From a virus (lineage: Duplodnaviria; Heunggongvirae; Uroviricota; Caudoviricetes), in IMG/VR virus record IMGVR_UViG_2711768038_000004: DNA of 27,608 nt, one strand, 5' to 3'. Below, piece by piece: positions 11,874 through 25,969 of this stretch (the first letter of the stretch is position 1; each line of letters starts with the position of its first letter). The notes under the pieces are model-generated. The model saw only the letters and a program-made list of their open reading frames with translations, did no database searches and was not told the origin of the DNA. The translations under genes and the position numbers were made by a program.

Positions 11874-12962
11874 TTACGCCAGTACGCCAATTGCCAGCGC
11901 GCGATCGATAAAACGAAATATCAGCTCCAGTTGGGAGCCATACTTATCTTCAAATGCCACTGTATCCGTATGCAGCTCGTTGTGATGCTTTCTGCACAAA
12001 GGCAACACAAAGAGATCATGTGCTTTTGTTCCCATTCCGCCCTGCCCGTGACCAATCAGATGATGCGGATCGTCGGCTGGCATACCGCAGCAAGCACACG
12101 GCTGTGTCTTAACCCAACGTGTGTATTTCTCCTTAACCCAGCGGCGACGTTTAGGCAGCTTCATGAAAGATTCCGGAGACTCTGGATCAACGGTGATGCT
12201 TACCACCGTCTTTTCCTGTGGTGATTTTTGTTGCTGGTGGGCGTAAGGCAACGGTGCAAGATTTTTTGTGCGTTGTTTCAATATGCTGGTGGCGGTCTGC
12301 TCTCCCGGTACGATGTCGCTTTCGCGGTACACCGAGCAGATTTTTTCCGCTGGTAATCCCAGCGAACGACGCGATACAGCCTCAGGTAGTGCATCCACCA
12401 CCTGATTGCAGACCGCCCACCAGGATAATTCAGCCAAAGATAATTCCCGCTCCTGCGTACCGCTTATTGCGTGACGGATGACGTCAATCACCCATGCTGT
12501 CAGATTTTGTTGAGCAAGCAGCTCCAGTGATTCCGATGTCTGGTCACGCAGTTGGTTGTCGCAGTGCCAGCACAACACCATTGCGCCGGTACCATAACGG
12601 TGAATGACTGTTTCAGTGTGATGGTAATCGCCATTAGGCCACTGGCAGGATGTAACATGACGTAATAGCCAGTCGGACAATGCGCCAACGCCGCCAGCAG
12701 CACGAATCACCCGTTCGTTACTAAAAAACGGCAGCAATGTTTTGTCTTCCGCCAGCGGCTGGCGAACGGCAGGAACGACTCCGGATGGCAGATTACGCAT
12801 GCTTTTTGGTTCCGGTTCCACCAGCACTCGAGGATTATGAAATATCTGTATGGATTCACGGCCCGGCTTAAGGACCACCAGCCCAAGCTCAGGCACCAGA
12901 ACAGGTCTAAGTAATACCCGCACGTTACCTCCAGATCCGTTGCTGGAAAGTGCGGGACGCAC
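11874..12962 (-). CDS. ydfU: DUF968-family nin-region protein YdfU (349-362 aa; alternative GTG start at 12923)
   Basis: Recognised YdfU-like sequence with HNH-like Cys/His cluster (CACCGMPADDPHHL); sits just upstream of Q as in lambdoid nin regions. Confidence 0.7.
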   Translation of the reverse strand: MRPALSSNGSGGNVRVLLRPVLVPELGLVVLKPGRESIQIFHNPRVLVEPEPKSMRNLPSGVVPAVRQPLAEDKTLLPFFSNERVIRAAGGVGALSDWLLRHVTSCQWPNGDYHHTETVIHRYGTGAMVLCWHCDNQLRDQTSESLELLAQQNLTAWVIDVIRHAISGTQERELSLAELSWWAVCNQVVDALPEAVSRRSLGLPAEKICSVYRESDIVPGEQTATSILKQRTKNLAPLPYAHQQQKSPQEKTVVSITVDPESPESFMKLPKRRRWVKEKYTRWVKTQPCACCGMPADDPHHLIGHGQGGMGTKAHDLFVLPLCRKHHNELHTDTVAFEDKYGSQLELIFRFIDRALAIGVLA

Positions 12963-13203
12963 GTGGTGGGCGTTCGGAATAAGGCAGCCTGACAGAGATT
13001 ATCCAGTGCCGATAGTCGAGACTGAGAGCTTTCTTAACCTCGAACCCGCGCCTGCGGTAAGAATGAATCAGCCATTCGGCCTGTTCTGCAGTGCATGGAG
13101 GGTGCTGGAACCATTCAGACTTGAATGCGTGAGAATACCGCCCGTGCGTGCAGGCAAGAACGGGCGAATTATCAGAATTGTAATATTTTGCGTTGCGTGC
13201 CAT
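12925..13203 (-). CDS. Hypothetical 92-aa protein; its stop lies 1 nt before the alternative GTG start of ydfU
   Basis: ORF only; not recognised by me. Confidence 0.4.
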   Translation of the reverse strand: MARNAKYYNSDNSPVLACTHGRYSHAFKSEWFQHPPCTAEQAEWLIHSYRRRGFEVKKALSLDYRHWIISVRLPYSERPPRASRTFQQRIWR

Positions 13204-13269
13204 CGGTTTTCTCCGGTGGCACGGTGTTACTCAGCGGGAGTTCAGCCCCGCGCAAGATTGTAGATGAGT

Positions 13270-13521
13270 TTATTCTCCTGAAAAAGCAGAAAAGCCAGCT
13301 TTTATTCCGATCTCTTTCAATGCCTGTAATGAAGTGACAAACTCACCTTCGCGCAAGATAAATCCGTCCGTGACCCGAGCATCCACAAAATTAATTAACG
13401 CAGCCCCATTCTTTCGCAAACACATAATGCGGTAATGACTAACAAGATTTCCATTTTCAACGCACACAGCATAGAGGCCATCTTCACAAAAAATTTTACG
13501 CAGTTCTTCGATGTTCATCAT
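13270..13521 (-). CDS. rem: Qin prophage protein Rem, 83 aa
   Basis: Length and position between ydfU and hokD; assignment from memory of gene order rather than sequence. Confidence 0.5.
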   Translation of the reverse strand: MMNIEELRKIFCEDGLYAVCVENGNLVSHYRIMCLRKNGAALINFVDARVTDGFILREGEFVTSLQALKEIGIKAGFSAFSGE

Positions 13522-13635
13522 CAGAATCCTTCCGGATAATTAGCTCTCCCCTTTAAGGGACCATCCCTCTTATCCCTGCGCGCTACTTAAGTATTTTTGA
13601 TTCTATTCCGGCACCGTCCAGAACTTCAAACGCGT

Positions 13636-13668
13636 TGAAAATAAAAACAAAAACCCGCCGAAGCGGGT
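13636..13668 (-). terminator. Rho-independent terminator of the relB-relE-hokD operon (ACCCGC-cgaa-GCGGGT plus T-run on the minus strand)
   Basis: Hairpin plus T-run, seen directly. Confidence 0.55.
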
Positions 13669-13737
13669 TAAGTGCGGGTGCGTTGAGGATGCCTGCCACA
13701 TCAGAGGTGGCGAGGGATTTCTCCCCCGCCGGGTCTC

Positions 13738-13893
13738 TTACTCCTCAGGTTCGTAAGCTGTGAAGACAGCGACCTCCGTCTGGCCGGTTCGGATTCGTAC
13801 CTCGCAGAGGTCTTTCCTCGTTACCAGTGCCGTCACTATGACGGTTAAACAGATGACGATCAGGGCGATTAACATCGCCTTTTGCTGCTTCAT
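13738..13893 (-). CDS. hokD: Hok-family type I toxin HokD (RelF), 51 aa
   Basis: Translated by hand: MKQQKAMLIALIVICLTVIVTALVTRKDLCEVRIRTGQTEVAVFTAYEPEE. Below the ORF-track cutoff. Confidence 0.85.
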   Translation of the reverse strand: MKQQKAMLIALIVICLTVIVTALVTRKDLCEVRIRTGQTEVAVFTAYEPEE

Positions 13894-13964
13894 AGCCTGC
13901 TTCTCCTGTCAACGCAAAGCAGAAGTGTCACCTTCGGTGCGAAACAGAGATGTCATGCTTTGGT

Positions 13965-14252
13965 TCAGAGAATGCGTTTGACCGCCTCGCTATATACTTC
14001 CGAGCGTTCTCTTTTCCCAACAGAAATCACGAAAACGACAACTTTCTCGTCTATAACCTGGTATACAAGGCGATAGCCTGAAGACCGGAGCTTAATCTTG
14101 TAACAATCAGGCATACCACGGAGCTTGTTTGCTTCAATCCGGGGTGACTCAAGTACTTCAACCAGCTTCTTTTTCAACTGTTCACGTACCGTCGAGCCCA
14201 GCTTTCGCCATTCCTTTAGTGCCCGCTCGTCAAAATCCAGAAAATACGCCAT
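13965..14252 (-). CDS. relE: Type II toxin RelE (ribosome-dependent mRNA interferase), 95 aa
   Basis: MAYFLDFDERALKEWRKLGSTVREQ... Confidence 0.9.
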   Translation of the reverse strand: MAYFLDFDERALKEWRKLGSTVREQLKKKLVEVLESPRIEANKLRGMPDCYKIKLRSSGYRLVYQVIDEKVVVFVISVGKRERSEVYSEAVKRIL

Positions 14253-14491
14253 CAGAGTTCATCCAGCGTCACACGTACTGGCTTAGGATTACGAAGCCGT
14301 TCTTTCACTATCTCCACAAGTTCAGCATCTTCATCACTCAGGAGTGTCTGTTTGAACGGCAAGCGTTCATTGTCAGCGATATACTCGAGCATGAGACGAA
14401 GCGCTTCAGAAGGAGTTACACCCATTTTTTCAAGCGCGGCGTAAGAACGCGCTTTAAGTTCATCGTCAATACGCAGGTTAATGCTACCCAT
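14252..14491 (-). CDS. relB: Antitoxin RelB, 79 aa
   Basis: MGSINLRIDDELKARSYAALEKMGVTPSE...; stop overlaps the relE start. Confidence 0.9.
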   Translation of the reverse strand: MGSINLRIDDELKARSYAALEKMGVTPSEALRLMLEYIADNERLPFKQTLLSDEDAELVEIVKERLRNPKPVRVTLDEL

Positions 14492-14496
14492 GTCTT

Positions 14497-14530
14497 ACAC
14501 CTCTTGTAATTACAAATGTCATTACAAGTA
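14497..14530 (-). promoter_or_regulatory. relBE operator (relO): palindromes TTGTAATTACAA and TTGTAATGACA immediately upstream of relB
   Basis: Inverted repeats seen in sequence at 14504-14528. Confidence 0.6.
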
Positions 14531-14821
14531 TCGCACTACAACATGCTTAGGGCAAGTCACGAAGGAAGTCAGAAAGTAGTCGTAAGAACGGTGATCACTG
14601 TCCGCTTTGTGCCAGGAGCAGCCATTGCTAAGTCCATCCTGTATTGTGCAGGTCAGCTCGTTTTTAAAGAGTCCGGCCATCATCTTACTGGTACAGACAC
14701 CATATACTTTGTGACGGTCAGGCTACATATGCACAACTCAACTTATTCATCTATTTTTTGCTTTAGCATGTCAGTGTTGCTTTCTCGTCGGCGGGTGAGC
14801 GGTGACCTGACCTGTCGATAA
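14516..14821 (+). CDS. ydfV: Hypothetical 101-aa ORF at the position of ydfV; coding status doubtful
   Basis: ORF of the right length and position; no convincing RBS or motifs. Confidence 0.3.
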   Translation: MSLQVSHYNMLRASHEGSQKVVVRTVITVRFVPGAAIAKSILYCAGQLVFKESGHHLTGTDTIYFVTVRLHMHNSTYSSIFCFSMSVLLSRRRVSGDLTCR

Positions 14822-14973
14822 AGGAACGTAACACGTTTTATGCAACACCCGCATGCGGCAGAAAATTATTGCCGAACGTTTACCCCTGTCAACAAGCTTT
14901 ACTTTCTGAGGCGCGCCAGCCCGCGAGGAAAACAATCTGAACATCAAACAATTAATGACACAAGAAATACGAT

Positions 14974-15000
14974 TAAAGATTTTTTTGTGCATGCCGATAG
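14974..15000 (+). promoter_or_regulatory. Sigma-28 (FliA) class 3 promoter of flxA: TAAAGATT-N11-GCCGATAG
   Basis: Close match to the FliA consensus TAAAGTTT-N11-GCCGATAA, 24 bp upstream of the flxA start. Confidence 0.65.
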
Positions 15001-15023
15001 TGCTTTTTTAAAAGGAGAAATCT

Positions 15024-15356
15024 ATGTCTGTCACAATTCAGGGAAATACCTCAACCGTTATTTCAAACAACTCCGCCCCGGAAGGAACATCAGAAATAGC
15101 CAAAATCACAAGACAAATTCAGGTGCTGACTGAAAAGCTTGGGAAAATCTCATCGGAAGAGGGGATGACGACACAGCAGAAAAAAGAAATGGCTGCATTG
15201 GTACAGAAGCAAATTGAAAGCCTCTGGGCTCAACTGGAGCAGTTGTTAAGGCAGCAGGCAGAGAAAAAGAATGAAGACGCGACAGTTCAGCCTGATAAAA
15301 AAGAAGAGAAAAAAGACGATACAAATACCGCTGGCACCATTGATATTTACGTCTAA
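15024..15356 (+). CDS. flxA: FlxA, 110 aa (FliA-regulated protein)
   Basis: MSVTIQGNTSTVISNNSAPEGTSEIAKITRQIQ... Confidence 0.85.
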   Translation: MSVTIQGNTSTVISNNSAPEGTSEIAKITRQIQVLTEKLGKISSEEGMTTQQKKEMAALVQKQIESLWAQLEQLLRQQAEKKNEDATVQPDKKEEKKDDTNTAGTIDIYV

Positions 15357-15792
15357 GTGACAGCCGTATTGTGGCCCTCATCGGGCCACTTTTCGCCATC
15401 AGCCTTTTCTTTAAAGACATATTATCTTTGTATCATTTCTGATAGTTAACATTACAAGATATAAGTAATGGACGCACTCCCAATTAGTCTATTTAAATCG
15501 CCACGAGTTTAACTGACAACCCATGATCAATTATGAATTGCAACTATTTCTGTAGTCACTTTTGTGGGGACAGTCCACAAAACTGCCAACTTCCGCTTCT
15601 TGCTCTTAGCGGACATTAGCATAGGCTATTTACCATAACGCCTCATTACGCGCACCGCCCAGACTGACTCAGCGCGTTTCTGGCATATCCCCGGTAAAAC
15701 AAGTAACAAACCACCCGAAAATGAACACCAGAAACGCGACTTAAGAATCTACCCTATGAATGGATATGCACTCAACCGAATCGATCTTGGTT

Positions 15793-17106
15793 TCAATCTT
15801 TTTTATCGGGATCAGGCTTCTTTTTAGGTAACTTCGGGGGCTTAACTTGCTGATGACTTTGCGTTCGGCGCGTAAGCCAGGGATGGTCAGCTTTAGGTTT
15901 AACATAGTATTTTGAGCGTAAATCAATACGGGCATTATCCACTCGTTCATGGACACTCTTTTCATCATCCAGTGGTATAGGCTCCGGGCCATCAACATAC
16001 TTTTCCCAGCCCAGCGCTTTCCCGTCATACAGAACGTTAATTTCACCGTCAAAGTTCTCGCATACAGTAACAACCGAATGCCTAAGTCGATATCCCCGGC
16101 CCTCACTGCGTACCTGAAACGCACTGCTTTTGTACTGGAAAGTGAGATTTTTAGACAGAACGCGCTTCGCCTGTAGGCTGAAGATATAACCCAGTTCCTC
16201 TTCAGAATGGTGCACATCAAGATGAGCATTATCAGTAGTACGAGGCGACGTAGCGAACCGGTTGTTATAGGCTTCAATAAAGGTCGGCAACCATGCATTT
16301 GCTGTTTCAATATCACTGATATTCTGAAGCCGCATTTCTTTGACCAGCCTGTCCTGTAGTGTCTGATTGGCGCGCTCTACCCGCCCTTTTGCCTGCGGGC
16401 TGTTGGCATGGATTGGCTCGATGCCCAGTGTCTTTATCGCACGAGTGAACTGGGTCAGCTCACCTTCCCGCTCTGGGTTATTTACCCTGAATATACTGTG
16501 TCTATCAGAGTAGAGAGCGAGCGGTACGCCATGATCATTAAGGTAACCCCGGAGGGTTTCCATGTAAGCCCGGGTTGTTTCAGCAGGCACAAAACGCAAC
16601 GCCATCAACGCACTGGTGGCATCATCAATGAAAACGATCAGTGTACATCTGGGGCCTCGATTTTCAAACCAGTCATGAGGTGAGCCATCAATCTGGATCA
16701 GTTCACCGTAAGATGGTCGTCGCATGCGGCGTTGATATATACGGGCAATTTTACGACGGCGTTCACGCCATAACCCCTCTTCTATCATCCACTTTCTGAG
16801 AGTTTCAACGGATAAAGATAAACCGTGTATCTCGCGCAATTTTTCGCACGCAAACGTAGGTCCAAAATCAGCGTAACGGCCTTTGAGGAGTGAAATTACT
16901 GTTGCTCTGAATTCAGTAGAAAAGGAATTATTAGGACGCTTTCCACGTCGGTGGGAAACCAGACCAGAAGGCCCTTCATTTCTATACCGTTGCACCAGAC
17001 GTTTAACCTGCCGAATAGAAATGCCAATGCGTGCCGCAGCTTGTTCCTGAATAATCTGAAGTCGGTGGAGTTCCTTATGACTCATCGTAACAGTCTCTTT
17101 GATCAT
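15793..17106 (-). CDS. DDE transposase / integrase-core (rve) protein with N-terminal HTH, 437 aa, IS481-like architecture; element boundaries not identified
   Basis: N-terminal HTH (IGISIRQVKRLVQRY), DDE core (IQIDGSPHDWF...LIVFIDDATS...NSPQAKGRVERANQTL). A poly-G/A SD (GGGGGA) precedes the ATG at 17106. Confidence 0.65.
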   Translation of the reverse strand: MIKETVTMSHKELHRLQIIQEQAAARIGISIRQVKRLVQRYRNEGPSGLVSHRRGKRPNNSFSTEFRATVISLLKGRYADFGPTFACEKLREIHGLSLSVETLRKWMIEEGLWRERRRKIARIYQRRMRRPSYGELIQIDGSPHDWFENRGPRCTLIVFIDDATSALMALRFVPAETTRAYMETLRGYLNDHGVPLALYSDRHSIFRVNNPEREGELTQFTRAIKTLGIEPIHANSPQAKGRVERANQTLQDRLVKEMRLQNISDIETANAWLPTFIEAYNNRFATSPRTTDNAHLDVHHSEEELGYIFSLQAKRVLSKNLTFQYKSSAFQVRSEGRGYRLRHSVVTVCENFDGEINVLYDGKALGWEKYVDGPEPIPLDDEKSVHERVDNARIDLRSKYYVKPKADHPWLTRRTQSHQQVKPPKLPKKKPDPDKKD

Positions 17107-17440
17107 GAAAAATCCCCCAGAGAATTGTCTGGGGACATTTTAGAATGGTTCAAAGGGGACATTACAGCTTGGTGTTAACAATAGCCTGCTTCTCCGTGCC
17201 TTTCGGCACGTAAGAGGCTAACCTACATGTGTCTAGCATGAAATTGGCCTCAGATTAATGTTAAGCGTCTTGCAGGACGCGTAATGTTAACTGGGGCTTT
17301 TCTCTATCTGCCGTTGGTGTCCATGCCCGAGGCAGATAGCCTCAAGCACCCGCAGTCATTCTACTTAACTAAGATTTCCCCGCAAACCGTTTTTGTCCAG
17401 CACAGTAAATATCCAACTAAACCAATGGAGTTCGCTGTAT

Positions 17441-17620
17441 TTACCGCCAGTATTCAATGCACATGACCGCCATGAACACCCCTAAAAAAAGGGCATTTAT
17501 ATATCCAAATATTAATATCAAAACATCAACTTTTTCCATATACCTTGCTGTGAAGATGATGGGCATACATGATGCGAACAACCAGAACGCAACAAACAAA
17601 AACTGCAATGCGTTTTTCAT
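17441..17620 (-). CDS. Small membrane protein, 59 aa, two predicted TM helices
   Basis: MKNALQFLFVAFWLFASCMPIIFTARYMEKVDVLILIFGYINALFLGVFMAVMCIEYWR; perfect AGGAGG 4 nt upstream of the ATG at 17620. Confidence 0.5.
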   Translation of the reverse strand: MKNALQFLFVAFWLFASCMPIIFTARYMEKVDVLILIFGYINALFLGVFMAVMCIEYWR

Positions 17621-17874
17621 TATTCCTCCTACAATCAATGTGCAATTACATTTAAACACACCTCAATTTGGCCGGACATATAAATATCTAAACCAGAAAA
17701 AATCACTTACATAGCGTTACAAACTCTTTAGTCTAAAGGTTCATCGTAAAACATTCCCCATACTTATCAGTCCGTTCCGCGCCAGGTAGCTCATTGCCTT
17801 ATCTGGCAACCTGTAATCAGGTTTCCGCTTTTTCAGTTGGCTGGTCGTTTAACCGACATAGTTAATCCATTAAT

Positions 17875-18162
17875 CTAGTTGCCGGATGTTGGTGGATTTT
17901 CGCGTTTTAGTTGTTCATAAAAGTGCACAGCTTTAACCAGTTCTTCTGATGTAACTGGGACTGGTGAGGCAGTGAATAAGGCCTGAATTTGATAGTTCGG
18001 CCTGTCGTTACAATCCTCTTTTTTCGGTACATATTTCCAGTCACCAGACCACTACTTCCCCTGAAAGTCCGTAACGCCTTTTTTCACGTAGCGATATCGC
18101 CATGCCACTGGTTTTGCTTGCCCCGCCGTTTCATGCCCTTCCTGATAATTAATCTCGCTCAT
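17875..18162 (-). pseudogene. Hypothetical gene interrupted by an in-frame TAG (18052-18054): 36 codons, amber, 58 codons
   Basis: The frame stays open and protein-like across the TAG (MSEINYQEGHETAGQAKPVAWRYRYVKKGVTDFQGK*WSGDWKYVPKKEDCNDRPNYQIQALF...). Confidence 0.45.
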
Positions 18163-18350
18163 TCATCGCCCCACTCATCACAATATGCTTCGACCGGAGT
18201 TTTTCCCGCTTCATAGTCATCACGCTAGGATTCGACATCAGCAGCACTTCCACCGCGTAACTCACCATAGTCCATTAATAGTTCATCCCGCTCTTCAAAA
18301 CTGATGTTATATTTAGCTGAACAAAAATCAGCCACTTTGTTCTTCCTCAT
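18159..18350 (-). pseudogene. Hypothetical small gene interrupted by an in-frame TAG (18225-18227); its TGA stop overlaps the ATG of the downstream gene (ATGA)
   Basis: MRKNKVADFCSAKYNISFEERDELLMDYGELRGGSAADVES*RDDYEAGKTPVEAYCDEWGDE; the coupling signal is preserved. Confidence 0.35.
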
Positions 18351-18399
18351 CGTCTTTTATTTCGTGGTATGAGTAATTGCAGTAGTTAAAGAAAATTTC

Positions 18400-18510
18400 T
18401 TATGCTCCGTCATGAATTTCCTCAGGTGTTGCGTCATCGTCCACTTCGAATACATCCTCAAAATCTCCACCAGCTATTCCCGTTTCAATAATAATTTTGA
18501 ACTTTCGCAT
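18400..18510 (-). CDS. Hypothetical acidic 36-aa ORF (MRKFKIIIETGIAGGDFEDVFEVDDDATPEEIHDGA)
   Basis: Small ORF preceded by a GC hairpin; weak RBS. Confidence 0.2.
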   Translation of the reverse strand: MRKFKIIIETGIAGGDFEDVFEVDDDATPEEIHDGA

Positions 18511-18682
18511 TTCACTACCGCCCTTTCGGGCGGCCTCCTGATGTTCTGAGGGTGCAGAAATCCATCCGGTTAAGGATTAAATTTTATTTACAGAACTGAA
18601 TTTAATTATTCAGATATACGTATCTGTAGCCTTACGAATCTACTCACTGGATGCCTCTTTCATAAAAATAATCCAGTGGGTT

Positions 18683-19129
18683 TTATCGTTTTTTCCCTGT
18701 TCGTTGACAGATAACAGGTTTTCTGTCTGTCAGTGCCAGAATCTGGCTTACCGGTATTTGCGTTTCATTCCATTAAAAAATCAGAACGCCGTGCGGCCTC
18801 AACACCCGAAAGGCTTCTTTAAATCTCTGTCGCGAATCATCACGCCAGGCATCTTTATTCAGCCGTCCATATTTCTTTCCCATCCAGGCGTTATCACCAA
18901 CACTCTCAAGATGCGGAGGGTCTAATACAACCATCGAAAAAGATGCGTCTGCAAATGATAATGCACGAAAATCTGCGATAATGTCAGGGCTGATAATCAA
19001 GCGTCTCCCATTGCGTAATGTGTATCCTTCTTTTCTGATATCGCTGAATATCGCCCGTTCGTCAGACTTATCGAACCAGAACATGCGGCTGCCACAGCAC
19101 ATATCAAGAATGGTTGCCGGTGCACTCAC
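18683..19129 (-). pseudogene. Phage-type DNA N6-adenine/N4-cytosine methyltransferase interrupted by an in-frame TAA (18773-18775)
   Basis: SAM-binding-like motif (DMCCGSRMFWF) and DPPH motif (DPPY-type) in the 118-aa part; the frame continues ...GVLIF*WNETQIPVSQILALTDRKPVICQRTGKKR. Confidence 0.55.
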
Positions 19130-19548
19130 TGCGCCACGTCCTGAAAATTACCCTGATAGAAAGCCAGTATGCGCTGCATAACTTCGCTCTTCCGGCACTC
19201 GCGACAGATTATGTTTAGGCGACTGTCGTAGCGACGTATTTCTCCGTCAGGTGATGACCAGATAAGGTCCGGATCAACCACAGCAGGTTTCTTCACCTTT
19301 GCCCTCGAGAGTTTTTTGCGGGCGTTTTGCCAGTCCTTACGCGCCTGTTCAGAGGGGAATAACCCGTAGCCGGAGTTGTATACATCGCCACTGGCTACCA
19401 GCTCTCTGGCAAGAACGCTCATCAGATATCTAGTCGCACCTGTTTTAGCTTCCAGTTGCCGTAACGTCTCACGGCCGCTCTGGCGCACGAGTTCCACCAC
19501 CTGCCATTTAATTTTTTCCCGCTCTTCTTGTGTAAAAACTTTTGCCAC
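19126..19548 (-). CDS. Hypothetical 140-aa protein in the replication region (possible wHTH, C-terminal Cys pair)
   Basis: ORF with ATGA overlap onto the methyltransferase gene; not recognised. Confidence 0.5.
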   Translation of the reverse strand: MAKVFTQEEREKIKWQVVELVRQSGRETLRQLEAKTGATRYLMSVLARELVASGDVYNSGYGLFPSEQARKDWQNARKKLSRAKVKKPAVVDPDLIWSSPDGEIRRYDSRLNIICRECRKSEVMQRILAFYQGNFQDVAQ

Positions 19549-19588
19549 AAGTCCCCCTTAAAATTACCTCATGACCTGAAATCAACAC

Positions 19589-20608
19589 TTATCCTCTGAA
19601 ACCAGGCGGAATTTCTGTATCCGGTTCAGAAATATGATTAACACAACGCTGTACAGGTGAACGTCCCAGGCGGATGACCAGTTCGTCCCATTTTTCGCGG
19701 AGCTTTGACGGGCTCATGATGTTTTTTACCCAGAATGGATCTCGCTGAACCCGACCAAACATTTCGCAAATTTGTCTGTGGCTTCTGCCATCCAGCATCC
19801 GCATTGTGCGCACGTCATTGGCCCAGGCAGTCCAGTTAGGCTCTTTTGGTCGCATGATCTCGCCATCATCACTGGCTGCCTGTTCGTAGAGACCCACGAT
19901 CCGCCCCCAGATCCACTGCGCACACGCCAAATCCTCCCTGCTACCCCACTGGCGTTTTTTCGCACTAAACACAACCGCGTCGGAGTTCCGGGTTAAAAAA
20001 TCCTGTTCAGTCGTCTGCGGGTCCGGTTGCGAAGCTTCCGGACGAAAAGTGTTTTTATTCTCTGTAGTAATCTCTGTTGTATTCTCTGTAAGATCATCAG
20101 GCCATTTTGACCCGATGACATTGGGTCGTTTTGAACCAATGGAGCGTTTCATTTTGACCTCTTCCATCGTGTCATTTTGACCTGATGGAGCGGCGCATTT
20201 TGAACCGATGGATTCGCTCAATTTGCCACCATCTAAAAGCTCGCTCCCATAGTTGATCGTGTAGAAATTGGTCATATCGCGCTTTGATTTATTGAGCTTT
20301 TCACAACGCAAAAGCCCCAGCGTTTTCAGACTTGCAAACGCGCGCTTTAACGTTGACTCTGACCAGAATGGGAACTGTTCCAGCCATTGTTCCGTTGTGT
20401 TATAAATCCAGCGAACACCATCACATTCCATGCCGGAGTTGGTATCTCTCAACCAGTAGTGCAGTTGTTGCAAAACAATGGCTTCGTTTAAGCCAATTTT
20501 CATTGCCAGCTGCGTGTTTATAACCAGTGGGCGTTCAGCAAAAAGAAGGCTCATAATTCCATCCAGCTTTTTGTTGGTATTGCTGTCGATACGCAAGTTT
20601 GAAAGCAA
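19589..20608 (-). CDS. Replication initiator (lambda O-like): N-terminal DNA-binding domain, repeat-encoding linker, C-terminal domain; likely start at Met19 (20554)
   Basis: Position after the Cro-like and YdaT-like genes; protein repeats (SIGSK x3, TENTTEITTEN) coincide with DNA iterons inside the gene. Confidence 0.65.
   Translation of the reverse strand: MLSNLRIDSNTNKKLDGIMSLLFAERPLVINTQLAMKIGLNEAIVLQQLHYWLRDTNSGMECDGVRWIYNTTEQWLEQFPFWSESTLKRAFASLKTLGLLRCEKLNKSKRDMTNFYTINYGSELLDGGKLSESIGSKCAAPSGQNDTMEEVKMKRSIGSKRPNVIGSKWPDDLTENTTEITTENKNTFRPEASQPDPQTTEQDFLTRNSDAVVFSAKKRQWGSREDLACAQWIWGRIVGLYEQAASDDGEIMRPKEPNWTAWANDVRTMRMLDGRSHRQICEMFGRVQRDPFWVKNIMSPSKLREKWDELVIRLGRSPVQRCVNHISEPDTEIPPGFRG
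20059..20211. repeat. Candidate replication origin: five ~23-bp iterons (CATTTTGA(C/A)C-N-GATGG) at 20103-20211 plus three 12-bp tandem repeats (ATTCTCTGTAGT-like) at 20059-20094
   Basis: Direct repeats with about 23-bp periodicity, read directly; they lie in the interdomain linker of the initiator gene, as in lambda O. Confidence 0.65.
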
Positions 20609-21056
20609 TTGCTTTTTCTATAAGTTCGTCAGTTTCACGATCCACTACGGCAGGATCAGCAAAAAGCAGTCCGGACTCCACCACATCGCCATATTCTTTG
20701 TTTAACCCGGCGATCATGCACGTGATGCTTTTTCCGTCAGTAATTTCACGATACAACCTGAAATCATTAATCCGGATAGCCTCCATAATTGCAGGCACTA
20801 GCGCCGTGAACTTTTCACGCTTATCCCTGGTGTCGATAGCCTTCCAGCGTTCAAATATCTTCACTCGATTAACGCCAAGCGCTCGCTGATCAATCGCGCC
20901 ACCTTCATATGTGACACGCTGAACATCGATGTTCGGGCGCTCTTTCAAAGCCCAGAATGCTTCAGTGATTAATATCGTCGCCTGCTCCTGTGTCATTCCT
21001 GGTCGACATATCCAGGCATCCAGAGCCTCACGAGCCTGTTCAGGAGTGATTTTCAT
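20535..21056 (-). CDS. YdaT-like protein (CII-position regulator of YdaS/YdaT-type switches), 173 aa
   Basis: Resembles Rac YdaT as I recall it (...ERWKAIDTRDKREKFTALVPAIMEAI...); located directly after the Cro-like gene. Confidence 0.55.
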   Translation of the reverse strand: MKITPEQAREALDAWICRPGMTQEQATILITEAFWALKERPNIDVQRVTYEGGAIDQRALGVNRVKIFERWKAIDTRDKREKFTALVPAIMEAIRINDFRLYREITDGKSITCMIAGLNKEYGDVVESGLLFADPAVVDRETDELIEKAIAFKLAYRQQYQQKAGWNYEPSFC

Positions 21057-21270
21057 TGTTCAACCGCCCCGCCCGCTTCGTCTTACGATATTCATCATAA
21101 ACTTTGGGATCATACTGAAGCTCCCCGCCAGATGCCTCCTGTAGACGCATCGCGCGACCTTCGGGAACTAAATCCCCTTTCCAGCTATAAAGCGAAGCCA
21201 AACGAATACCTGCTGCTTGTGCAAGTTTTGTTTTTGAACCGAAATACAAAAGAGCGTCAGTTTTAAGCAT
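21040..21270 (-). CDS. dicC: DicC, Cro-like repressor, 76 aa
   Basis: MLKTDALLYFGSKTKLAQAAGIRLASLYSWKGD... Confidence 0.85.
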   Translation of the reverse strand: MLKTDALLYFGSKTKLAQAAGIRLASLYSWKGDLVPEGRAMRLQEASGGELQYDPKVYDEYRKTKRAGRLNNENHS

Positions 21271-21353
21271 TTAAAACACCTTTATTGTTAGTCATAACTA
21301 ACAAGATAGATGTTAACAAAAACATAGTCAATACGATTTAGCATTAGCTAACT
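21271..21353. promoter_or_regulatory. Divergent dicA/dicC promoter-operator region (Oc): palindromes TTGTTAGTCATAACTAACAA (21286-21305), TGTTAACA, TTAGCattaGCTAA
   Basis: Inverted repeats in the 83-bp interval between divergent repressor genes. Confidence 0.6.
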
Positions 21354-21761
21354 ATGGAAACAAAAAATTTAACTATCGGCGAACGCATCAGGTATCGTCG
21401 GAAAAACCTCAAACACACCCAAAGGTCTCTTGCTAAAGCCCTGAAAATCTCCCATGTGTCTGTATCACAATGGGAACGGGGTGATAGTGAACCTACAGGG
21501 AAGAACCTTTTTGCCCTCAGCAAAGTATTGCAATGCTCACCAACATGGATTCTATTTGGCGATGAAGACAAGCAACCAACACCACCTGTTGAGAAGCCAG
21601 TTGCCTTATCCCCCAAAGAACTAGAGCTCCTTGAGCTGTTTAATGCACTGCCAGAATCAGAACAGGATACCCAGCTCGCCGAAATGCGAGCTCGAGTAAA
21701 AAACTTCAATAAACTCTTTGAAGAATTACTAAAAGCCCGTCAGCGGACAAATAAAAGATAA
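21354..21761 (+). CDS. dicA: DicA, CI-like HTH-XRE repressor, 135 aa
   Basis: METKNLTIGERIRYRRKNLKHTQRSLAKALKISHVSVSQWERGD... Confidence 0.9.
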   Translation: METKNLTIGERIRYRRKNLKHTQRSLAKALKISHVSVSQWERGDSEPTGKNLFALSKVLQCSPTWILFGDEDKQPTPPVEKPVALSPKELELLELFNALPESEQDTQLAEMRARVKNFNKLFEELLKARQRTNKR

Positions 21762-21795
21762 CATCATCAATGAGTTATCTTTTACCACATCAATT

Positions 21796-21850
21796 ATGTT
21801 AGCTATAGCATACAAAATCACTTGACCGATATGTTAGTCATGGCTAATCT
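21796..21850 (+). promoter_or_regulatory. Promoter of the ydfABC-dicF-dicB operon (TTGACC-N17-TAATCT, 21822-21850) with DicA-operator-like sites ATGTTAGCTATAGCAT and ATGTTAGTCATGGCTAA
   Basis: Hexamers and TGTTAG(T/C)(C/T)AT repeats, the second overlapping the spacer; the same motif occurs in Oc. Confidence 0.5.
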
Positions 21851-21927
21851 TGTTTGCATCAACACACCGCACGGTGTTCTCAGCAAACAGTTCCGCTACC
21901 CCAGCGTTAAGGGGAAATGAGGTCAGC

Positions 21928-22083
21928 ATGGATACTATCGATCTTGGCAACAACGAATCTCTGGTGTACGGCGTGTTTCCAAACCAGGACGGCACGTTCA
22001 CCGCAATGACGTATACCAAAAGCAAAACGTTTAAAACCGAAAATGGTGCCCGTCGCTGGCTGGAAAGAAACTCAGGTGAGTGA
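21928..22083 (+). CDS. ydfA: YdfA, 51 aa
   Basis: MDTIDLGNNESLVYGVFPNQDGTFTAMTYTKSKTFKTENGARRWLERNSGE. Confidence 0.8.
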   Translation: MDTIDLGNNESLVYGVFPNQDGTFTAMTYTKSKTFKTENGARRWLERNSGE

Positions 22084-22084
22084 T

Positions 22085-22213
22085 ATGGATTTCGACACAA
22101 TCATGGAAAAGGCTTACGAAGAATACTTCGAAGGCCTTGCCGAAGGCGAAGAAGCTCTCAGCTTCAGTGAGTTTAAACAGGCGCTTTCCAGTTCGGCAAA
22201 ATCTAACGGCTGA
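22085..22213 (+). CDS. ydfB: YdfB, 42 aa
   Basis: Translated by hand: MDFDTIMEKAYEEYFEGLAEGEEALSFSEFKQALSSSAKSNG. Confidence 0.7.
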   Translation: MDFDTIMEKAYEEYFEGLAEGEEALSFSEFKQALSSSAKSNG

Positions 22214-22242
22214 TAAGCGAAACAGCACCGCGAGGAATCAGT

Positions 22243-22461
22243 ATGCAGAAACGAGAACCCGTCATCATCGCGCCAGACTATACCGATGATGAACTTTATG
22301 AGTGGATGCGCCAGAAAATTAATGCAGCGCAGGATCTGAAATGGGCTAATGAAGCCAGGGCTAAGCAGGCTGAAAATCTGTCCGCTCTGGAGCAGGATAT
22401 CACCAATCTGGAAAAAGCAGCGGCATTAAGCATTGCCAGAATGATTACATACCCGCGTTAG
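22243..22461 (+). CDS. ydfC: YdfC, 72 aa
   Basis: MQKREPVIIAPDYTDDELYEWMRQKINAAQD...; GAGG RBS. Confidence 0.8.
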   Translation: MQKREPVIIAPDYTDDELYEWMRQKINAAQDLKWANEARAKQAENLSALEQDITNLEKAAALSIARMITYPR

Positions 22462-22801
22462 TAGCTAATCAACAAAGCTAAGGTTAGTAATTAAGGAGTT
22501 CTCCACGGGTGAGGTGGAGTGCGTGCGCCGGACACGGGTGCGCATCCGGAACTGACAGTTTACTGAAAGGATATTTCCCTGAAAAGTCAGACCATAACGC
22601 GAAAGCGCACGGCGAGGTAGCTGGTTCATAGATAGCCTGTCGTTAAATTTTCGTCGACCGTGCGCTTCCGGTTGTGGCAACCCGCGAAATGGCGCGGCGG
22701 TAAGTATGGCGGGGTTATTCCTTCCCCGTTGAGGACACCGGGTTGTCAGGTTGACCATACGCTTAAGTGACAACCCCGCTGCAACGCCCTCTGTTATCAA
22801 T

Positions 22802-22854
22802 TTTCTGGTGACGTTTGGCGGTATCAGTTTTACTCCGTGACTGCTCTGCCGCCC
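22802..22854 (+). ncRNA. dicF: DicF small RNA (53 nt; antisense inhibitor of ftsZ and other targets), processed from the operon transcript
   Basis: Matches my recollection of DicF (UUUCUGGUGACGUUUGGCGGUAUCAGUUUUACUCCGUGACUGCUCUGCCGCCC) followed by a U-run. Confidence 0.8.
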
Positions 22855-23028
22855 TTTTTAAAGTGAATTTTGTGATGTGGTGAATGCGGCTGAGCGCACG
22901 CGGAACAGTTAAAACCAAAAACAGTGTTATGGGTGGATTCTCTGTATCCGGCGTTAATTGTTAACTGGTTAACGTCACCTGGAGGCACCAGGCACTGCAT
23001 CACAAAATTCATTGTTGAGGACGCGATA

Positions 23029-23405: not shown

Positions 23406-23497
23406 AACAGTTCCGTAATAAATATCCGGTTTCATTCTTATATGCCAGCAATGGCAGGGATTTGTTCATCCTTAAATCTGTCATGAGGTTAAAACAA

Positions 23498-25969
23498 ATG
23501 AGTAAAGTCTTTATTTGCGCCGCTATTCCTGACGAACTGGCAACAAGGGAAGAAGGCGCTGTGGCTGTAGCCACAGCCATTGAAGCTGGCGACGAACGCC
23601 GTGCTCGAGCAAAATTTCACTGGCAATTCCTGGAACATTATCCGGCTGCTCAGGACTGCGCTTATAAATTTATTGTCTGCGAGGATAAACCTGGCATACC
23701 CCGCCCTGCCCTCGATTCATGGGATGCTGAATATATGCAGGAAAACCGCTGGGATGAGGAGTCTGCTTCTTTTGTCCCGGTTGAGACTGAATCCGATCCG
23801 ATGAACGTCACTTTTGACAAGCTGGCCCCTGAAGTACAGAACGCTGTCATGGTTAAGTTCGACACATGTGAAAACATCACCGTTGATATGGTTATTAGCG
23901 CACAGGAATTGTTGCAGGAAGACATGGCAACATTCGACGGACATATCGTTGAAGCGTTGATGAAAATGCCAGAAGTTAACGCCATGTATCCGGAGCTTAA
24001 GTTGCACGCCATTGGGTGGGTTAAGCATAAATGTATTCCTGGTGCTAAATGGCCCGAAATTCAGGCAGAGATGCGCATCTGGAAAAAACGTCGCGAAGGT
24101 GAACGCAAGGAAACCGGAAAATACACGTCTGTTGTTGATCTCGCCCGCGCCAGAGCCAATCAACAGTACACTGAAAATTCAACAGGAAAAATCAGCCCGG
24201 TCATTGCTGCCATTCATCGCGAATACAAGCAGACATGGAAAACACTGGATGACGAACTGGCCTACGCTCTCTGGCCTAGTGATGTGGATGCCGGAAACAT
24301 TGACGGCAGCATCCATCGCTGGGCAAAAAAAGAAGTTATCGACAACGACCGCGAAGACTGGAAGCGTATCTCGGCATCAATGCGCAAACAGCCTGATGCC
24401 CTTCGCTACGACCGCCAAACTATTTTTGGCCTTGTCCGTGAGCGTCCGATCGACATTCACAAAGATCCCGTAGCACTGAACAAATATATCTGCGAATACC
24501 TGACGACAAAGGGCGTGTTTGAGAATGAAGAAACAGACCTGGGCACTGTTGATGTTCTCCAGTCATCAGAAACACAAACTGATGCAGTGGAAACTGAGGT
24601 ATCTGATATCCCAAAAAATGAAACCGCGCCGGAAGCTGAACCATCTGTAGAGCGTGAGGGGCCGTTCTATTTCCTCTTCGCAGATAAGGACGGAGAAAAA
24701 TACGGTCGCGCAAACAAACTCTCTGGTCTGGATAAGGCACTGGCTGCTGGCGCCACTGAAATCACAAAAGAAGAATATTTTGCCCGAAAAAATGGCACAT
24801 ACACGGGCTTACCGCAAAATGTAGATACCGCTGAAGATTCAGAACAACCAGAGCCGATAAAAGTTACCGCTGACGAAGTAAACAAAATTATGCAGGCAGC
24901 CAATATCAGCCAGCCTGACGCCGATAAGTTGCTTGCTGCATCACGTGGTGAATTTGTTGAAGGGATTAGTGACCCGAATGATCCGAAATGGGTTAAGGGG
25001 CTCCAGACCCGCGATTCTGTGAACCAGAACCAGCATGAATCGGAACGGAACTACCAAAAAGCGGAACAAAACAGTCCAAATGCGTTACAAAACGAGCCAG
25101 AAACGAAACAGCCTGAACCAGTAGCGCAACAGGAAGTGGAAAAAGTCTGCACCGCCTGCGGTCAGACCGGCGGCGGCAACTGCCCTGATTGTGGCGCGGT
25201 GATGGGCGACGCAACATACCAAGAAACATTCGATGAAGAGTATCAGGTTGAAGTTCAGGAAGATGATCCGGAGGAAATGGAAGGCGCTGAACATCCACAC
25301 AAGGAGAACACTGGCGGCAATCAGCATCACAATAGCGATAATGAAACTGGCGAGACGGCAGATCACCCAATTAAGGTGAACGGTCATCACGAAATCACAT
25401 CCACCAGCAGGACGTGTGACCATCTAATGATCGACCTTGAAACCATGGGAAAAAATCCTGATGCCCCGATCATCTCAATAGGTGCAATATTTTTCGATCC
25501 GCAAACCGGAGATATGGGACCGGAATTTAGTAAGACTATCGATCTGGAAACTGCTGGCGGAGTCATTGATCGGGACACCATTAAATGGTGGCTTAAGCAA
25601 TCACGCGAAGCGCAATCTGCCATTATGACCGATGAAATCCCGTTAGATGATGCACTGTTACAATTGCGAGAATTTATCGACGAAAACTCCGGTGAATTTT
25701 TTGTTCAGGTTTGGGGAAATGGAGCCAACTTCGACAACACGATTTTGCGCCGTTCATACGAACGGCAGGGGATCCCCTGCCCGTGGCGTTACTACAACGA
25801 TCGCGATGTACGCACAATCGTTGAGCTGGGGAAAGCCATAGACTTCGATGCCAGAACGGCTATTCCATTCGAAGGTGAGCGCCATAATGCACTTGATGAC
25901 GCCCGTTACCAGGCAAAATACGTTTCAGTTATCTGGCAAAAACTGATCCCGAGTCAGGCTGATTCTTAA
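23498..25969 (+). CDS. ydfE: YdfE-like large early-left-operon protein (823 aa), intact, with C-terminal DEDDh 3'-5' exonuclease domain and an internal Cys4 zinc ribbon
   Basis: Start MSKVFICAAIPDE with GAGG RBS (ORF track begins at 23462). Motifs DLETMG, GNGANFDNT, HNALDDARY; CTACGQTGGGNCPDCG. Confidence 0.75.
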   Translation: MSKVFICAAIPDELATREEGAVAVATAIEAGDERRARAKFHWQFLEHYPAAQDCAYKFIVCEDKPGIPRPALDSWDAEYMQENRWDEESASFVPVETESDPMNVTFDKLAPEVQNAVMVKFDTCENITVDMVISAQELLQEDMATFDGHIVEALMKMPEVNAMYPELKLHAIGWVKHKCIPGAKWPEIQAEMRIWKKRREGERKETGKYTSVVDLARARANQQYTENSTGKISPVIAAIHREYKQTWKTLDDELAYALWPSDVDAGNIDGSIHRWAKKEVIDNDREDWKRISASMRKQPDALRYDRQTIFGLVRERPIDIHKDPVALNKYICEYLTTKGVFENEETDLGTVDVLQSSETQTDAVETEVSDIPKNETAPEAEPSVEREGPFYFLFADKDGEKYGRANKLSGLDKALAAGATEITKEEYFARKNGTYTGLPQNVDTAEDSEQPEPIKVTADEVNKIMQAANISQPDADKLLAASRGEFVEGISDPNDPKWVKGLQTRDSVNQNQHESERNYQKAEQNSPNALQNEPETKQPEPVAQQEVEKVCTACGQTGGGNCPDCGAVMGDATYQETFDEEYQVEVQEDDPEEMEGAEHPHKENTGGNQHHNSDNETGETADHPIKVNGHHEITSTSRTCDHLMIDLETMGKNPDAPIISIGAIFFDPQTGDMGPEFSKTIDLETAGGVIDRDTIKWWLKQSREAQSAIMTDEIPLDDALLQLREFIDENSGEFFVQVWGNGANFDNTILRRSYERQGIPCPWRYYNDRDVRTIVELGKAIDFDARTAIPFEGERHNALDDARYQAKYVSVIWQKLIPSQADS

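What the first reader, a model, noticed from the sequence alone, without database searches (positions are those of the whole stretch)
20059..20211. Iteron-type replication origin embedded in the O-like initiator gene
Five direct repeats of about 23 bp (CATTTTGA(C/A)C..GATGG) at 20103-20211 and three 12-bp tandem repeats at 20059-20094 lie in the middle of the 339-aa initiator gene. They encode its interdomain linker (SIGSK repeats, TENTTEITTEN). This is the lambda ori-in-O arrangement. No P/DnaC-like helicase loader gene follows; the next ORF is only 140 aa.
Basis: partly seen in the sequence, partly recalled or inferred. Interest (0 to 1): 0.55.

Follow-up and report, generated by a model that had tools for sequence, protein, structure and literature searches.

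The report
Phage replication origin inside initiator gene
The repeats are real and almost certainly form the replication origin of a Qin-type lambdoid prophage, sitting inside its own initiator gene as in phage lambda; this is a familiar design, with the twist that the initiator carries no helicase-loader gene but ends in the same short tail as the host restart protein DnaT.

Summary
Confirmed. Five 23-bp iterons (20095-20210) and three 12-bp A-rich repeats (20056-20091) lie in the middle of a minus-strand O-like initiator gene (19589-20554, 321 aa from ATG; 339 aa from the upstream TTG).

The iterons are read in all three frames. Third-codon-position diversity collapses only in this stretch. 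The repeats encode a predicted disordered linker between a winged-helix N-domain and a C-domain homologous to lambda O (pairwise E 1e-26).

The iterons and 12-mers travel with the N-domain when the C-domain is swapped, and change when the N-domain is swapped. The 12-mer block is the least stable duplex in the gene. This is the lambda ori-in-O layout with a different DNA-binding domain.

No P- or DnaC-like sequence exists anywhere in the window. Sister modules with the same iterons carry a DnaC-type gene or, in the one case found, a lambda-P-type gene. The loader type tracks the initiator's extreme C-terminal tail. Here the tail is ...SEPDTEIPPGFRG, as in E. coli DnaT and Rac YdaU, so use of host DnaB-DnaC is inferred, not shown.

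K-12 Qin has lost the module through a clean 4.8-kb deletion.

Verdict: an ordinary kind of element, a new member of it, with an interesting side lead.

The parts
19589..20554 (-). O-like replication initiator gene (321 aa from ATG; an in-frame TTG at 20608 would give 339 aa)
   Evidence: ORF list. PGAP start and homologue N-termini MSLLFAERP. PHROG 391 E 1.3e-91. No Pfam or NCBIfam family on its own, and 'hypothetical protein' in RefSeq.
20228..20554 (-). Codes for the N-terminal winged-helix DNA-binding domain (aa 1-109)
20095..20210 (-). Five contiguous 23-bp iterons. In gene orientation the consensus is CATCRGKTCAAAAYG-N4-CGATG. Three have dyad arms. A possible degenerate sixth copy lies at 20211-20233.
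   Evidence: Read in frames 2,1,0,2,2. Third-position diversity is 0.028 against 0.13-0.16 in the flanking domains. The same iterons occur in Kp4885-3, Citrobacter, L033 and L103.
20045..20094 (-). A-rich block with three 12-mers (ACAGAGAATACA type, 20056-20091); proposed DNA-unwinding element
   Evidence: 65% A+T and 40% A on the sense strand. It is the least stable 45-bp duplex in the gene: dG -50.4 against a mean of -62.0, sd 3.8. Third-position diversity is 0.009. Conserved down to 50% protein identity even where the iterons change.
19661..20014 (-). Codes for the helical C-terminal domain (aa 181-298), homologous to the lambda O C-terminal domain
   Evidence: BLASTP against lambda O gives 34% identity over 148 aa, E 1e-26. 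tblastn hits to O of lambda, 21, 434 and phi80. AF2 pLDDT of about 90.
19592..19648 (-). Codes for the extreme C-terminal tail RCVNHISEPDTEIPPGFRG (DnaT/YdaU-like motif)
   Evidence: Matches the last 21 residues of E. coli DnaT in PDB 2ru8 and 9zbt and NCBIfam DnaT positions 160-179. 13/19 identical to the end of Rac YdaU. Disordered in AF2. Under strong amino-acid-level constraint: first/second-position pi 0.019 against third-position pi 0.21.
19126..19548 (-). DUF977 (YdaW/'LygF'/Ren-like) gene immediately downstream; not a helicase loader
   Evidence: Pfam DUF977 E 5e-29. PHROG 142 'Ren-like exclusion protein'. It co-occurs with DnaC-type or P-type genes in sister modules, so it does not replace them.
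20535..21056 (-). cII-like/YdaT-family gene upstream, overlapping the initiator start by 20 nt
   Evidence: Pfam YdaT_toxin. PHROG 163 CII-like.
21040..21761 (.). Immunity region: dicC (cro-like, minus strand, 21040-21270) and dicA (repressor, plus strand, 21354-21761), from which rightward-type transcription would enter the replication genes
   Evidence: NCBIfam DicC 1.8e-47 and DicA 3e-70. RefSeq annotation of the identical ATCC 8739 locus.

Best explanation
Window 20045-20210 is the replication origin of a Qin-type (DicA/DicC-immunity) lambdoid prophage. It is embedded in the linker-coding part of the phage's own O-like initiator gene.

Proposed mechanism:
1. After derepression, transcription from the dicC side produces the 321-aa initiator.
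2. Dimers of its N-terminal winged-helix domain bind the five dyad-symmetric 23-bp iterons and wrap the DNA.
3. The stress opens the adjacent A-rich block of three 12-mers, which is the least stable duplex in the gene.
4. The lambda-O-type C-domain and the disordered C-terminal tail then bring in the replicative helicase.

This module carries no loader gene and the tail is the DnaT/YdaU-type ...IPPGFRG. The helicase is therefore most likely delivered as the host DnaB-DnaC complex.

Shown here: the repeat structure, the nucleotide-level constraint, the domain architecture, the linkage of iterons to the N-domain, the homology to lambda O, and the absence of a loader gene.

Inferred: binding, unwinding, origin firing, and the tail-to-DnaC/DnaB contact.
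For: - The repeats are non-random.
- The iterons are read in three frames.
- In 38 distinct alleles, third-codon-position diversity is 0.13-0.21 in the N-domain, C-domain and tail. It falls to 0.028 in the iterons and 0.009 in the 12-mers. First/second positions stay at 0.013-0.031 throughout, so the constraint in the linker acts on nucleotides.
- Three of the five iterons have 5-6 of 7 dyad arm pairs; the gene-wide frequency of 5 or more is 1.9%.
- AF2 gives two confident domains joined by a linker with pLDDT below 50 at residues 110-173, exactly the repeat-coding stretch.
- The N-domain is a winged helix closest to iteron-binding plasmid RepA NTDs and to DnaD/DnaB(Bsu) NTDs.
- The C-domain is homologous to lambda O.
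- Domain-swap comparison: Kp4885-3 has the same N-domain, a different C-domain, and the same iterons and 12-mers. PhiR29_2 has a different N-domain, the same C-domain, and different iterons at 15-bp spacing. The lambda control recovers its 4 annotated iterons.
- The layout is conserved at 69%, 57% and 50% protein identity.
- The 12-mer block is the least stable duplex in the gene.
- A full Qin-type phage genome record (PhiR42_1) has a 99.7% identical initiator and the same gene order. PhiR29_2 carries the same C-domain with an ...IPAGFRG tail. Neither has any P or DnaC homologue.
- The tail matches DnaT and YdaU.
- Tail type tracks loader type, including one prediction confirmed after it was made.
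Against: - Nothing here demonstrates binding, unwinding or autonomous replication.
- The A-rich block is only 65% A+T, against 73% in lambda.
- Iterons 1 and 3 have poor dyad symmetry.
- 25 of 80 close relatives carry a DnaC-type gene right after the initiator. The loader-less form could therefore be a deletion derivative.
- This particular prophage carries an IS transposase and a truncated methyltransferase nearby.
- That PhiR42_1 is plaque-forming rests on its GenBank record and on a paper I could not read.
- The function of the DnaT tail is not established in the literature I could read. The latest structural work favours the DnaT N-domain for DnaB/DnaC recruitment.
Confidence: 0.8

Rival explanations
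1. It is an origin by descent but no longer self-sufficient. The loader-less module is a deletion derivative of an O-like plus DnaC-like (YdaU/YdaV-style) module. It cannot fire, or fires only with a helper prophage.
For: 25 of 80 loci with the same C-domain and tail have a DnaC-type gene starting 9 bp after the initiator stop. The window's prophage has an IS transposase and a truncated methyltransferase just downstream. K-12 has lost the whole module.
Against: 55 of 80 loci, plus divergent Citrobacter, Klebsiella and metagenomic homologues, lack any loader. Two complete phage genome records with hosts listed lack P and DnaC altogether. The initiator, iterons and tail all remain under strong constraint across 38 alleles.
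Confidence: 0.12
2. The repeats are a peptide repeat or slippage-prone low-complexity linker with no function at the DNA level.
For: Three copies encode (S)IGSK, and the 12-mers encode TENT/TEIT/TENK in frame. The linker is predicted to be disordered.
Against: The iteron core is read in three different frames. Third positions are as constrained as first/second positions only in this stretch. The repeats change with the N-domain, not with the linker's neighbours. Dyad symmetry has no meaning at the peptide level.
Confidence: 0.03
3. The origin is real, but helicase loading goes through the host restart primosome. The DnaT-like tail, or the C-domain, mimics DnaT to engage PriA/PriB rather than contacting DnaC/DnaB directly.
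For: The tail is shared with DnaT, which works inside the PriA-PriB-DnaT preprimosome. The DnaT C-terminal domain docks on PriA through a hydrophobic surface. Some homologues of this N-domain carry a full Pfam DnaT DNA-binding domain.
Against: The tail co-occurs with phage DnaC-type genes placed immediately downstream, as dnaT sits with dnaC. That points to the loader as partner. The C-domain here is lambda-O-type, with no Pfam hit, DnaT domain included.
Confidence: 0.15
4. An unrecognised phage protein is the loader, either the DUF977 protein or the YdaT/cII-like protein.
For: Both flank the initiator, are conserved in the module, and have no proven function.
Against: DUF977 co-occurs with DnaC-type and P-type genes in sister modules, so it does not substitute for them. 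PhiR29_2, Citrobacter and Kp4885-3 have PerC-like or Dam genes there instead. YdaT-like proteins are classed with CII-like activators.
Confidence: 0.05

Closest known systems
Phage lambda ori-lambda inside gene O, with the O-P initiator-loader pair
   Same: An array of dyad-symmetric iterons sits in the linker-coding middle of the initiator gene, followed in the direction of transcription by an A-rich, strand-asymmetric block. The C-terminal domain is homologous, E 1e-26, and the alignment starts in the equivalent post-iteron linker. Gene order is cro-like, cII-like, initiator. Both iteron cores contain TCAAAAYG.
   Different: The N-terminal DNA-binding domain is unrelated in sequence, with no significant match. 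There are five 23-bp iterons rather than four of 18-20 bp. The A-rich block is organised as three 12-mers and is less A+T-rich. There is no P gene. The C-terminal tail is DnaT-like rather than lambda's ...TDWIYGVDL.
RepA_N-type plasmid initiators of Gram-positive bacteria (e.g. staphylococcal multiresistance plasmid RepA, PDB 4pta/4pql)
   Different: No Pfam RepA_N hit, and sequence identity is 12-17%. The C-domain is different. The context is a Gram-negative lambdoid phage.
Rac prophage YdaU-YdaV and the host dnaT-dnaC pair
   Same: Identical type of extreme C-terminal tail...VNTVSLPDSAIPPGFRG in YdaU and ...VNTVSEPDSQIPPGFRG in DnaT. In 25 of 80 sister loci a YdaV-like DnaC-type gene follows the initiator as in Rac. 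DUF977/YdaW lies downstream.
   Different: YdaU has a DUF1376 N-domain and shares nothing with this protein outside the tail. DnaT has a different architecture and is not origin-specific. The window's module lacks the DnaC-type gene.
HTH_36 (P22 gp18-like) O-type initiators such as that of PhiR29_2, and DopC of Brezellec et al. 2017
   Same: Same C-domain and GFRG tail, iterons in the linker, and no loader. Brezellec et al. had already noted a DnaT C-terminal motif in the O-like DopC (PMC5509034).
   Different: Different N-domain and different iterons: GTCAAAATCTGACSC at 15-bp spacing. DopC reportedly has no iterons.

Membership tests
Lambda-type origin embedded in the initiator gene (ori-in-O) | Array of four or more iterons of about 18-23 bp with internal dyad symmetry inside the initiator ORF | tested here: met
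   Five 23-bp copies. Three have 5-6 of 7 arm pairs. No shuffle of 100 reached the observed hit count.
Lambda-type origin embedded in the initiator gene (ori-in-O) | Iterons encode the flexible linker between a DNA-binding N-domain and a C-domain | tested here: met
   AF2 gives pLDDT below 50 at residues 110-173, flanked by confident domains.
Lambda-type origin embedded in the initiator gene (ori-in-O) | A+T-rich, easily melted block immediately after the iterons in the direction of initiator transcription | tested here: met
   65% A+T and the least stable 45-bp window in the gene. It is weaker than lambda's 73%.
Lambda-type origin embedded in the initiator gene (ori-in-O) | Iteron sequence specific to, and co-inherited with, the N-terminal domain | tested here: met
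   Kp4885-3, PhiR29_2, L090, L092, L093 and L103.
Lambda-type origin embedded in the initiator gene (ori-in-O) | Selection acting on the DNA sequence rather than on the encoded peptide | tested here: met
   Three reading frames. Third-position diversity is 0.028 in the iterons and 0.009 in the 12-mers, against 0.13-0.21 elsewhere.
Lambda-type origin embedded in the initiator gene (ori-in-O) | Initiator-dependent autonomous replication, specific binding, and unwinding | not testable with these tools
   Needs cloning, EMSA or footprinting.
Lambda O protein family | C-terminal (P-interacting) domain homologous to lambda O | tested here: met
   34% identity over 148 aa, E 1e-26. tblastn hits to O of lambda, 21, 434 and phi80.
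Lambda O protein family | N-terminal domain of the lambda O type | tested here: not met
   No significant N-terminal similarity to lambda O. No Pfam hit at E up to 10 apart from spurious ones. The fold is closest to RepA_N and DnaD-NTD.
Lambda O-P replication module | P-type helicase loader gene directly downstream | tested here: not met
   The downstream gene is DUF977. tblastn with two P proteins finds nothing in the window. A sister module, L103, does have P.
RepA_N plasmid initiators | Sequence membership in Pfam RepA_N | tested here: not met
DnaT (primosomal protein) | Conserved extreme C-terminal tail ...SEPDxxIPPGFRG | tested here: met
   15 of 21 identical to E. coli DnaT, ending at the same final residue. 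NCBIfam DnaT positions 160-179.
DnaT (primosomal protein) | DnaT three-helix ssDNA-binding domain (Pfam PF17948) and PhdYeFM-like N-domain | tested here: not met
   No Pfam hit in this protein. Only 2 of 61 homologues carry PF17948. It is not a DnaT orthologue.

The most novel reading that the evidence does not exclude
The last ~10-20 residues of lambdoid initiators act as a portable loader-selection tag.

- A DnaT-type ...IPxGFRG tail sits on at least three unrelated initiator architectures: this lambda-O-type C-domain, the different C-domain of Kp4885-3, and DUF1376 YdaU. It also sits on host DnaT.
- It would specify DnaC-type loaders, whether phage-encoded or the host's own, which would allow a one-gene replication module.
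- A W...L-type tail, as in lambda O, would specify P-type loaders.

If this is right, the unassigned C-terminal tail of DnaT is the long-sought contact by which the restart primosome recruits DnaB-DnaC. It would also suggest that dnaT-dnaC descends from a prophage initiator-loader pair.
Probability: 0.4. Interest if true: 0.7.

Novelty: new member of a known kind. Interest (0 to 1): 0.4.

Why it matters
- **Annotation gap.** This initiator is 'hypothetical protein' in RefSeq and has no Pfam family. Yet most of the 2.2-kb query spanning the module (at least 80% covered) is found in 1390 of 5426 complete E. coli genomes, and the protein has 12,343 cluster-level relatives. The origin can be assigned directly from sequence.
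- **Stx-phage replication.** Papers on the 'Eru' replication types list YdaT-plus-HTH replication regions and state that nothing is known about how they replicate (PMC8951638). The architecture described here gives a concrete model for such units.
- **K-12 Qin.** It explains why K-12 Qin cannot replicate: the origin and initiator lie within a 4.8-kb deletion.
- **The tail lead.** The link between tail type and loader type offers a cheap, testable entry into an open question: how DnaT, and loader-less phage initiators, recruit DnaB-DnaC.

Tried and rejected
- **Family searches.** Pfam on the protein alone, even at E 10, gave nothing useful. NCBIfam gave only the DnaT tail.
- **PDB sequence searches.** Single-sequence and profile searches gave only the DnaT tail and noise.
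- **Literature.** Searches for a described link between the DnaT tail and phage initiators, for YdaU/YdaV replication, for DUF1376 with DnaT, and for 'initiator-solo' modules found nothing. The one exception was the DnaT_C remark in Brezellec et al. 2017. The Brenes & Laub 2025 paper describing the PhiR phages is not held, so their viability is taken from GenBank host fields and from a citing paper.
- **Walker-A regex.** My first count of DnaC-type genes by regex gave 20 of 80. tblastn raised it to 25 of 80. I considered that these might be IS21 IstB genes. I rejected that because they start 9 bp after the initiator stop and resemble Rac YdaV.
- **Peptide-repeat explanation.** Considered and rejected.
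- **Tail-only database search.** Not run, because the best-hit list would be dominated by this family and by DnaT.

Full report
**1. The observation**

The repeat finder reports 23-nt copies at 20095-20117, 20119-20141, 20142-20164, 20165-20187 and 20188-20210. It also reports three 12-nt copies at 20056-20091. TRF reports arrays of period 23 and period 12.

A 16-nt consensus with up to 3 mismatches hits 8 times in the 27.6-kb window, 5 of them in the array. The expectation is 1.12, and no shuffle of 100 reached 8.

The repeats lie in the middle of a minus-strand ORF, 19589-20608. RefSeq PGAP and all homologues start at the ATG at 20554, giving 321 aa. I use that numbering.

**2. What the gene is**

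The protein has no Pfam or NCBIfam family of its own and is 'hypothetical protein' in RefSeq. It matches PHROG 391 'replication initiation O-like' at E 1.3e-91.

Residues about 147-294 align to lambda O residues 135-270, with 34% identity and pairwise E 1e-26. tblastn also finds the O proteins of phages 21, 434 and phi80. The N-terminal part shows no significant similarity to lambda O.

An AF2 model (mean pLDDT 73.5) has four parts:
- a confident N-domain, residues 1-109, with an H-H-b-b-H-H-b-b order;
- a segment with pLDDT below 50 at residues 110-173;
- a confident helical C-domain, residues 180-298;
- a disordered tail.

Among 61 homologues, the N-domain hits HTH_36, DnaD_N, MarR and GntR. 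It is found fused to other C-domains, including Phg_2220_C and the DnaT DNA-binding domain. HMMER against 1.84 billion representatives finds 12,343 relatives at E 0.001 or better, most matching only the N-domain.

**3. The repeats are a DNA element, not a peptide repeat**

In gene orientation each iteron is CATCRGKTCAAAAYG-N4-CGATG. The five copies start in codon phases 2, 1, 0, 2, 2. The same core is therefore read as GSK, GQN and VKM. Three copies have 5-6 of 7 complementary arm pairs; only 1.9% of 23-mers in the gene reach 5.

I compared nucleotide diversity by codon position in 38 distinct alleles taken from the window and 50 IMG/VR loci:

| Region | Third-position diversity | First/second-position diversity |
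|---|---|---|
| N-domain | 0.131 | 0.014 |
| Iterons | 0.028 | 0.030 |
| 12-mer block | 0.009 | 0.024 |
| C-domain | 0.158 | 0.031 |
| Tail | 0.210 | 0.019 |

The codon-periodic signature of protein-level selection disappears exactly in the repeat stretch. It is replaced by uniform nucleotide-level constraint.

One natural E. coli allele (P0019, 290 aa) has a clean 31-aa deletion joining iteron 1 to iteron 5. This is the kind of in-frame iteron deletion I recall from lambda ori- mutants; that recollection was not checked here.

**4. The repeats belong to the N-domain**

- Klebsiella phage Kp4885-3 has the same N-domain (73% identity) but an unrelated C-domain. It carries six GGTCAAAATG iterons at 23-bp spacing and the same three ACAGAGAATACA 12-mers.
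- PhiR29_2 and 29 IMG/VR loci have the same C-domain behind a P22-gp18-like HTH_36 N-domain. In PhiR29_2 the iterons are different: GTCAAAATCTGACSC at 15-bp spacing.
- The same tool recovers the four annotated iterons of lambda.
- Homologues at 69% (Citrobacter), 57% and 50% identity keep the layout. In the 57% homologue the iteron sequence has changed (CATCGA..GGGCAAAA at 24 bp) while the 12-mers are retained.

**5. The 12-mer block**

It follows the iterons in the direction of transcription, as the A-rich region does in lambda. It is 65% A+T with 40% A on the sense strand; lambda has 73% and 57%.

It is the least stable 45-bp duplex in the whole gene. Nearest-neighbour dG is -50.4, against a gene mean of -62.0 with sd 3.8. 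Only 0.1% of gene positions and 2.9% of window positions are as unstable. I read it as the unwinding element.

Because 12 is a multiple of 3, the reading frame cannot separate DNA-level from peptide-level selection here. The very low third-position diversity can.

**6. Helicase loading**

The next gene, 19126-19548, is a DUF977 protein. tblastn with two P proteins and two DnaC-type proteins finds nothing in the window. It also finds nothing in the complete genomes of PhiR42_1 and PhiR29_2.

PhiR42_1 is a full Qin-type lambdoid genome with a 99.7% identical initiator and the same order O, DUF977, short methyltransferase. The PhiR phages are the temperate-phage panel cited in PMC13190303. I could not read the primary paper.

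The same module exists in three forms:
- with nothing after the initiator (55 of 80 IMG/VR loci);
- with a YdaV-like DnaC-type AAA+ gene starting 9 bp after the stop (25 of 80);
- with a lambda-P-type gene (locus L103).

The initiator here ends in ...RCVNHISEPDTEIPPGFRG. That tail matches the last 21 residues of E. coli DnaT, 15 of 21 identical and ending on the same final residue. It also matches the end of Rac YdaU, 13 of 19 identical, pairwise E 5e-6. YdaU is otherwise unrelated and is followed by the DnaC-like YdaV. Kp4885-3, with a different C-domain, ends in ...VPAGFRS. Lambda O ends in ...TDWIYGVDL.

In every case examined, GFRG-type tails go with a DnaC-type gene or no loader, and never with P. 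The cases are the window, PhiR42_1, PhiR29_2, Kp4885-3, L090, L093/L094, L095, L096, L097, L098, Rac and the 80 IMG/VR loci. Three initiators lacking that tail, lambda O, P0136 and P0140, are followed by P. P0211 has no GFRG tail and no loader.

I predicted that P0036 would be followed by P. It has the same N-domain and sits in a Qin-type context, with 70-71% identity by alignment (75% by BLASTP), but it ends in ...DGWEDVL. The look-up showed Phage_lambda_P (E 3e-55) followed by DUF977, with the same iterons and 12-mers upstream.

These loci are not phylogenetically independent, so this is a pattern, not a statistic.

The most economical reading is that the tail selects the loader, and that a GFRG tail allows direct use of host DnaB-DnaC. 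The function of the DnaT tail is not settled in what I could read. Removing residues 154-179 weakens ssDNA binding only modestly. How DnaB/DnaC is recruited is called unknown (PMC4132743; PMC13377028). Brezellec et al. had noted a DnaT C-terminal motif in the O-like DopC (PMC5509034).

**7. Context**

The region is 100% identical to the Qin-type prophage of E. coli ATCC 8739, W, IAI1 and others. Of 5426 complete genomes, 1390 carry at least 80% of the 2.2-kb query. The immunity genes are dicA and dicC.

K-12 Qin aligns to window 12119-15977 and 20777-22920 with a clean junction. It lacks 15978-20776, which holds part of a transposase, the methyltransferase, the DUF977 gene, the initiator with the origin, and the 3' part of the cII/YdaT-like gene. 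K-12 ydfX and ydfW are the stumps.

**8. Verdict**

This is the textbook lambda arrangement built on a different winged-helix domain with its own iterons. It is a new member of a known kind.

What remains inferred is origin activity itself and the route of helicase loading. The link between tail type and loader type is the part a replication specialist might find worth an experiment.

Noticed in passing
window 19592-19648; L086 4120-4977 (Rac ydaU); L004 3507-4421; L103 3501-5197: The extreme C-terminal tail ...IPxGFRG is shared by this initiator, Rac YdaU, Kp4885-3 (VPAGFRS) and host DnaT. It co-occurs with DnaC-type loaders or none. Three initiators lacking that tail (lambda O, P0136, P0140) are followed by lambda-P-type loaders. 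One prediction, for P0036/L103, was confirmed.
   Followed up: yes
P0019 (E. coli, 290 aa) against window 20095-20210: A natural in-frame 31-aa (93-bp) deletion joins iteron 1 to iteron 5, leaving a single iteron. It is presumably an origin-dead allele with an intact reading frame.
   Followed up: partly
window 15978-20776 against K-12 Qin (L089): K-12 Qin has a clean 4.8-kb deletion of this stretch. The K-12 genes ydfX and ydfW are the remnants of the cII/YdaT-like gene and of a transposase.
   Followed up: yes
window 15793-17106 (minus strand): A 437-aa transposase ORF, called a partial ISNCY-family transposase in the ATCC 8739 annotation, is inserted in the early-right region of the prophage.
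   Followed up: no
window 18773-19129 (minus strand): A 118-aa SAM-dependent DNA methyltransferase ORF matches only positions 52-165 of the 229-position PHROG 954 profile, so it is probably truncated. The same short form is present in PhiR42_1.
   Followed up: no
window 23462-25969 (plus strand): An 835-aa ORF occupies the position of the gene annotated as 'exonuclease' in ATCC 8739 and as exodeoxyribonuclease VIII in PhiR42_1. It lies next to the dicB/ydfD region. Not analysed.
   Followed up: no
P0001-P0003 (448 aa; P0001 is recorded on 56 contigs): Some assemblies call a 448-aa protein that joins the YdaT-like protein to the initiator. The two genes overlap by 20 nt here. This could be a frameshift allele or a gene-calling artefact.
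   Followed up: no
L092 364-504: In a 57%-identical homologue the iterons have changed to CATCGA..GGGCAAAA at 24-bp spacing, yet the three ACAGAGAATACA 12-mers are unchanged. The 12-mers therefore appear to be constrained independently of iteron specificity.
   Followed up: partly
window 20211-20233: A possible degenerate sixth iteron (GATGGTGGCAAATTGAGCGAATC in gene orientation). Relatives in Klebsiella and Citrobacter have six to seven copies.
   Followed up: partly
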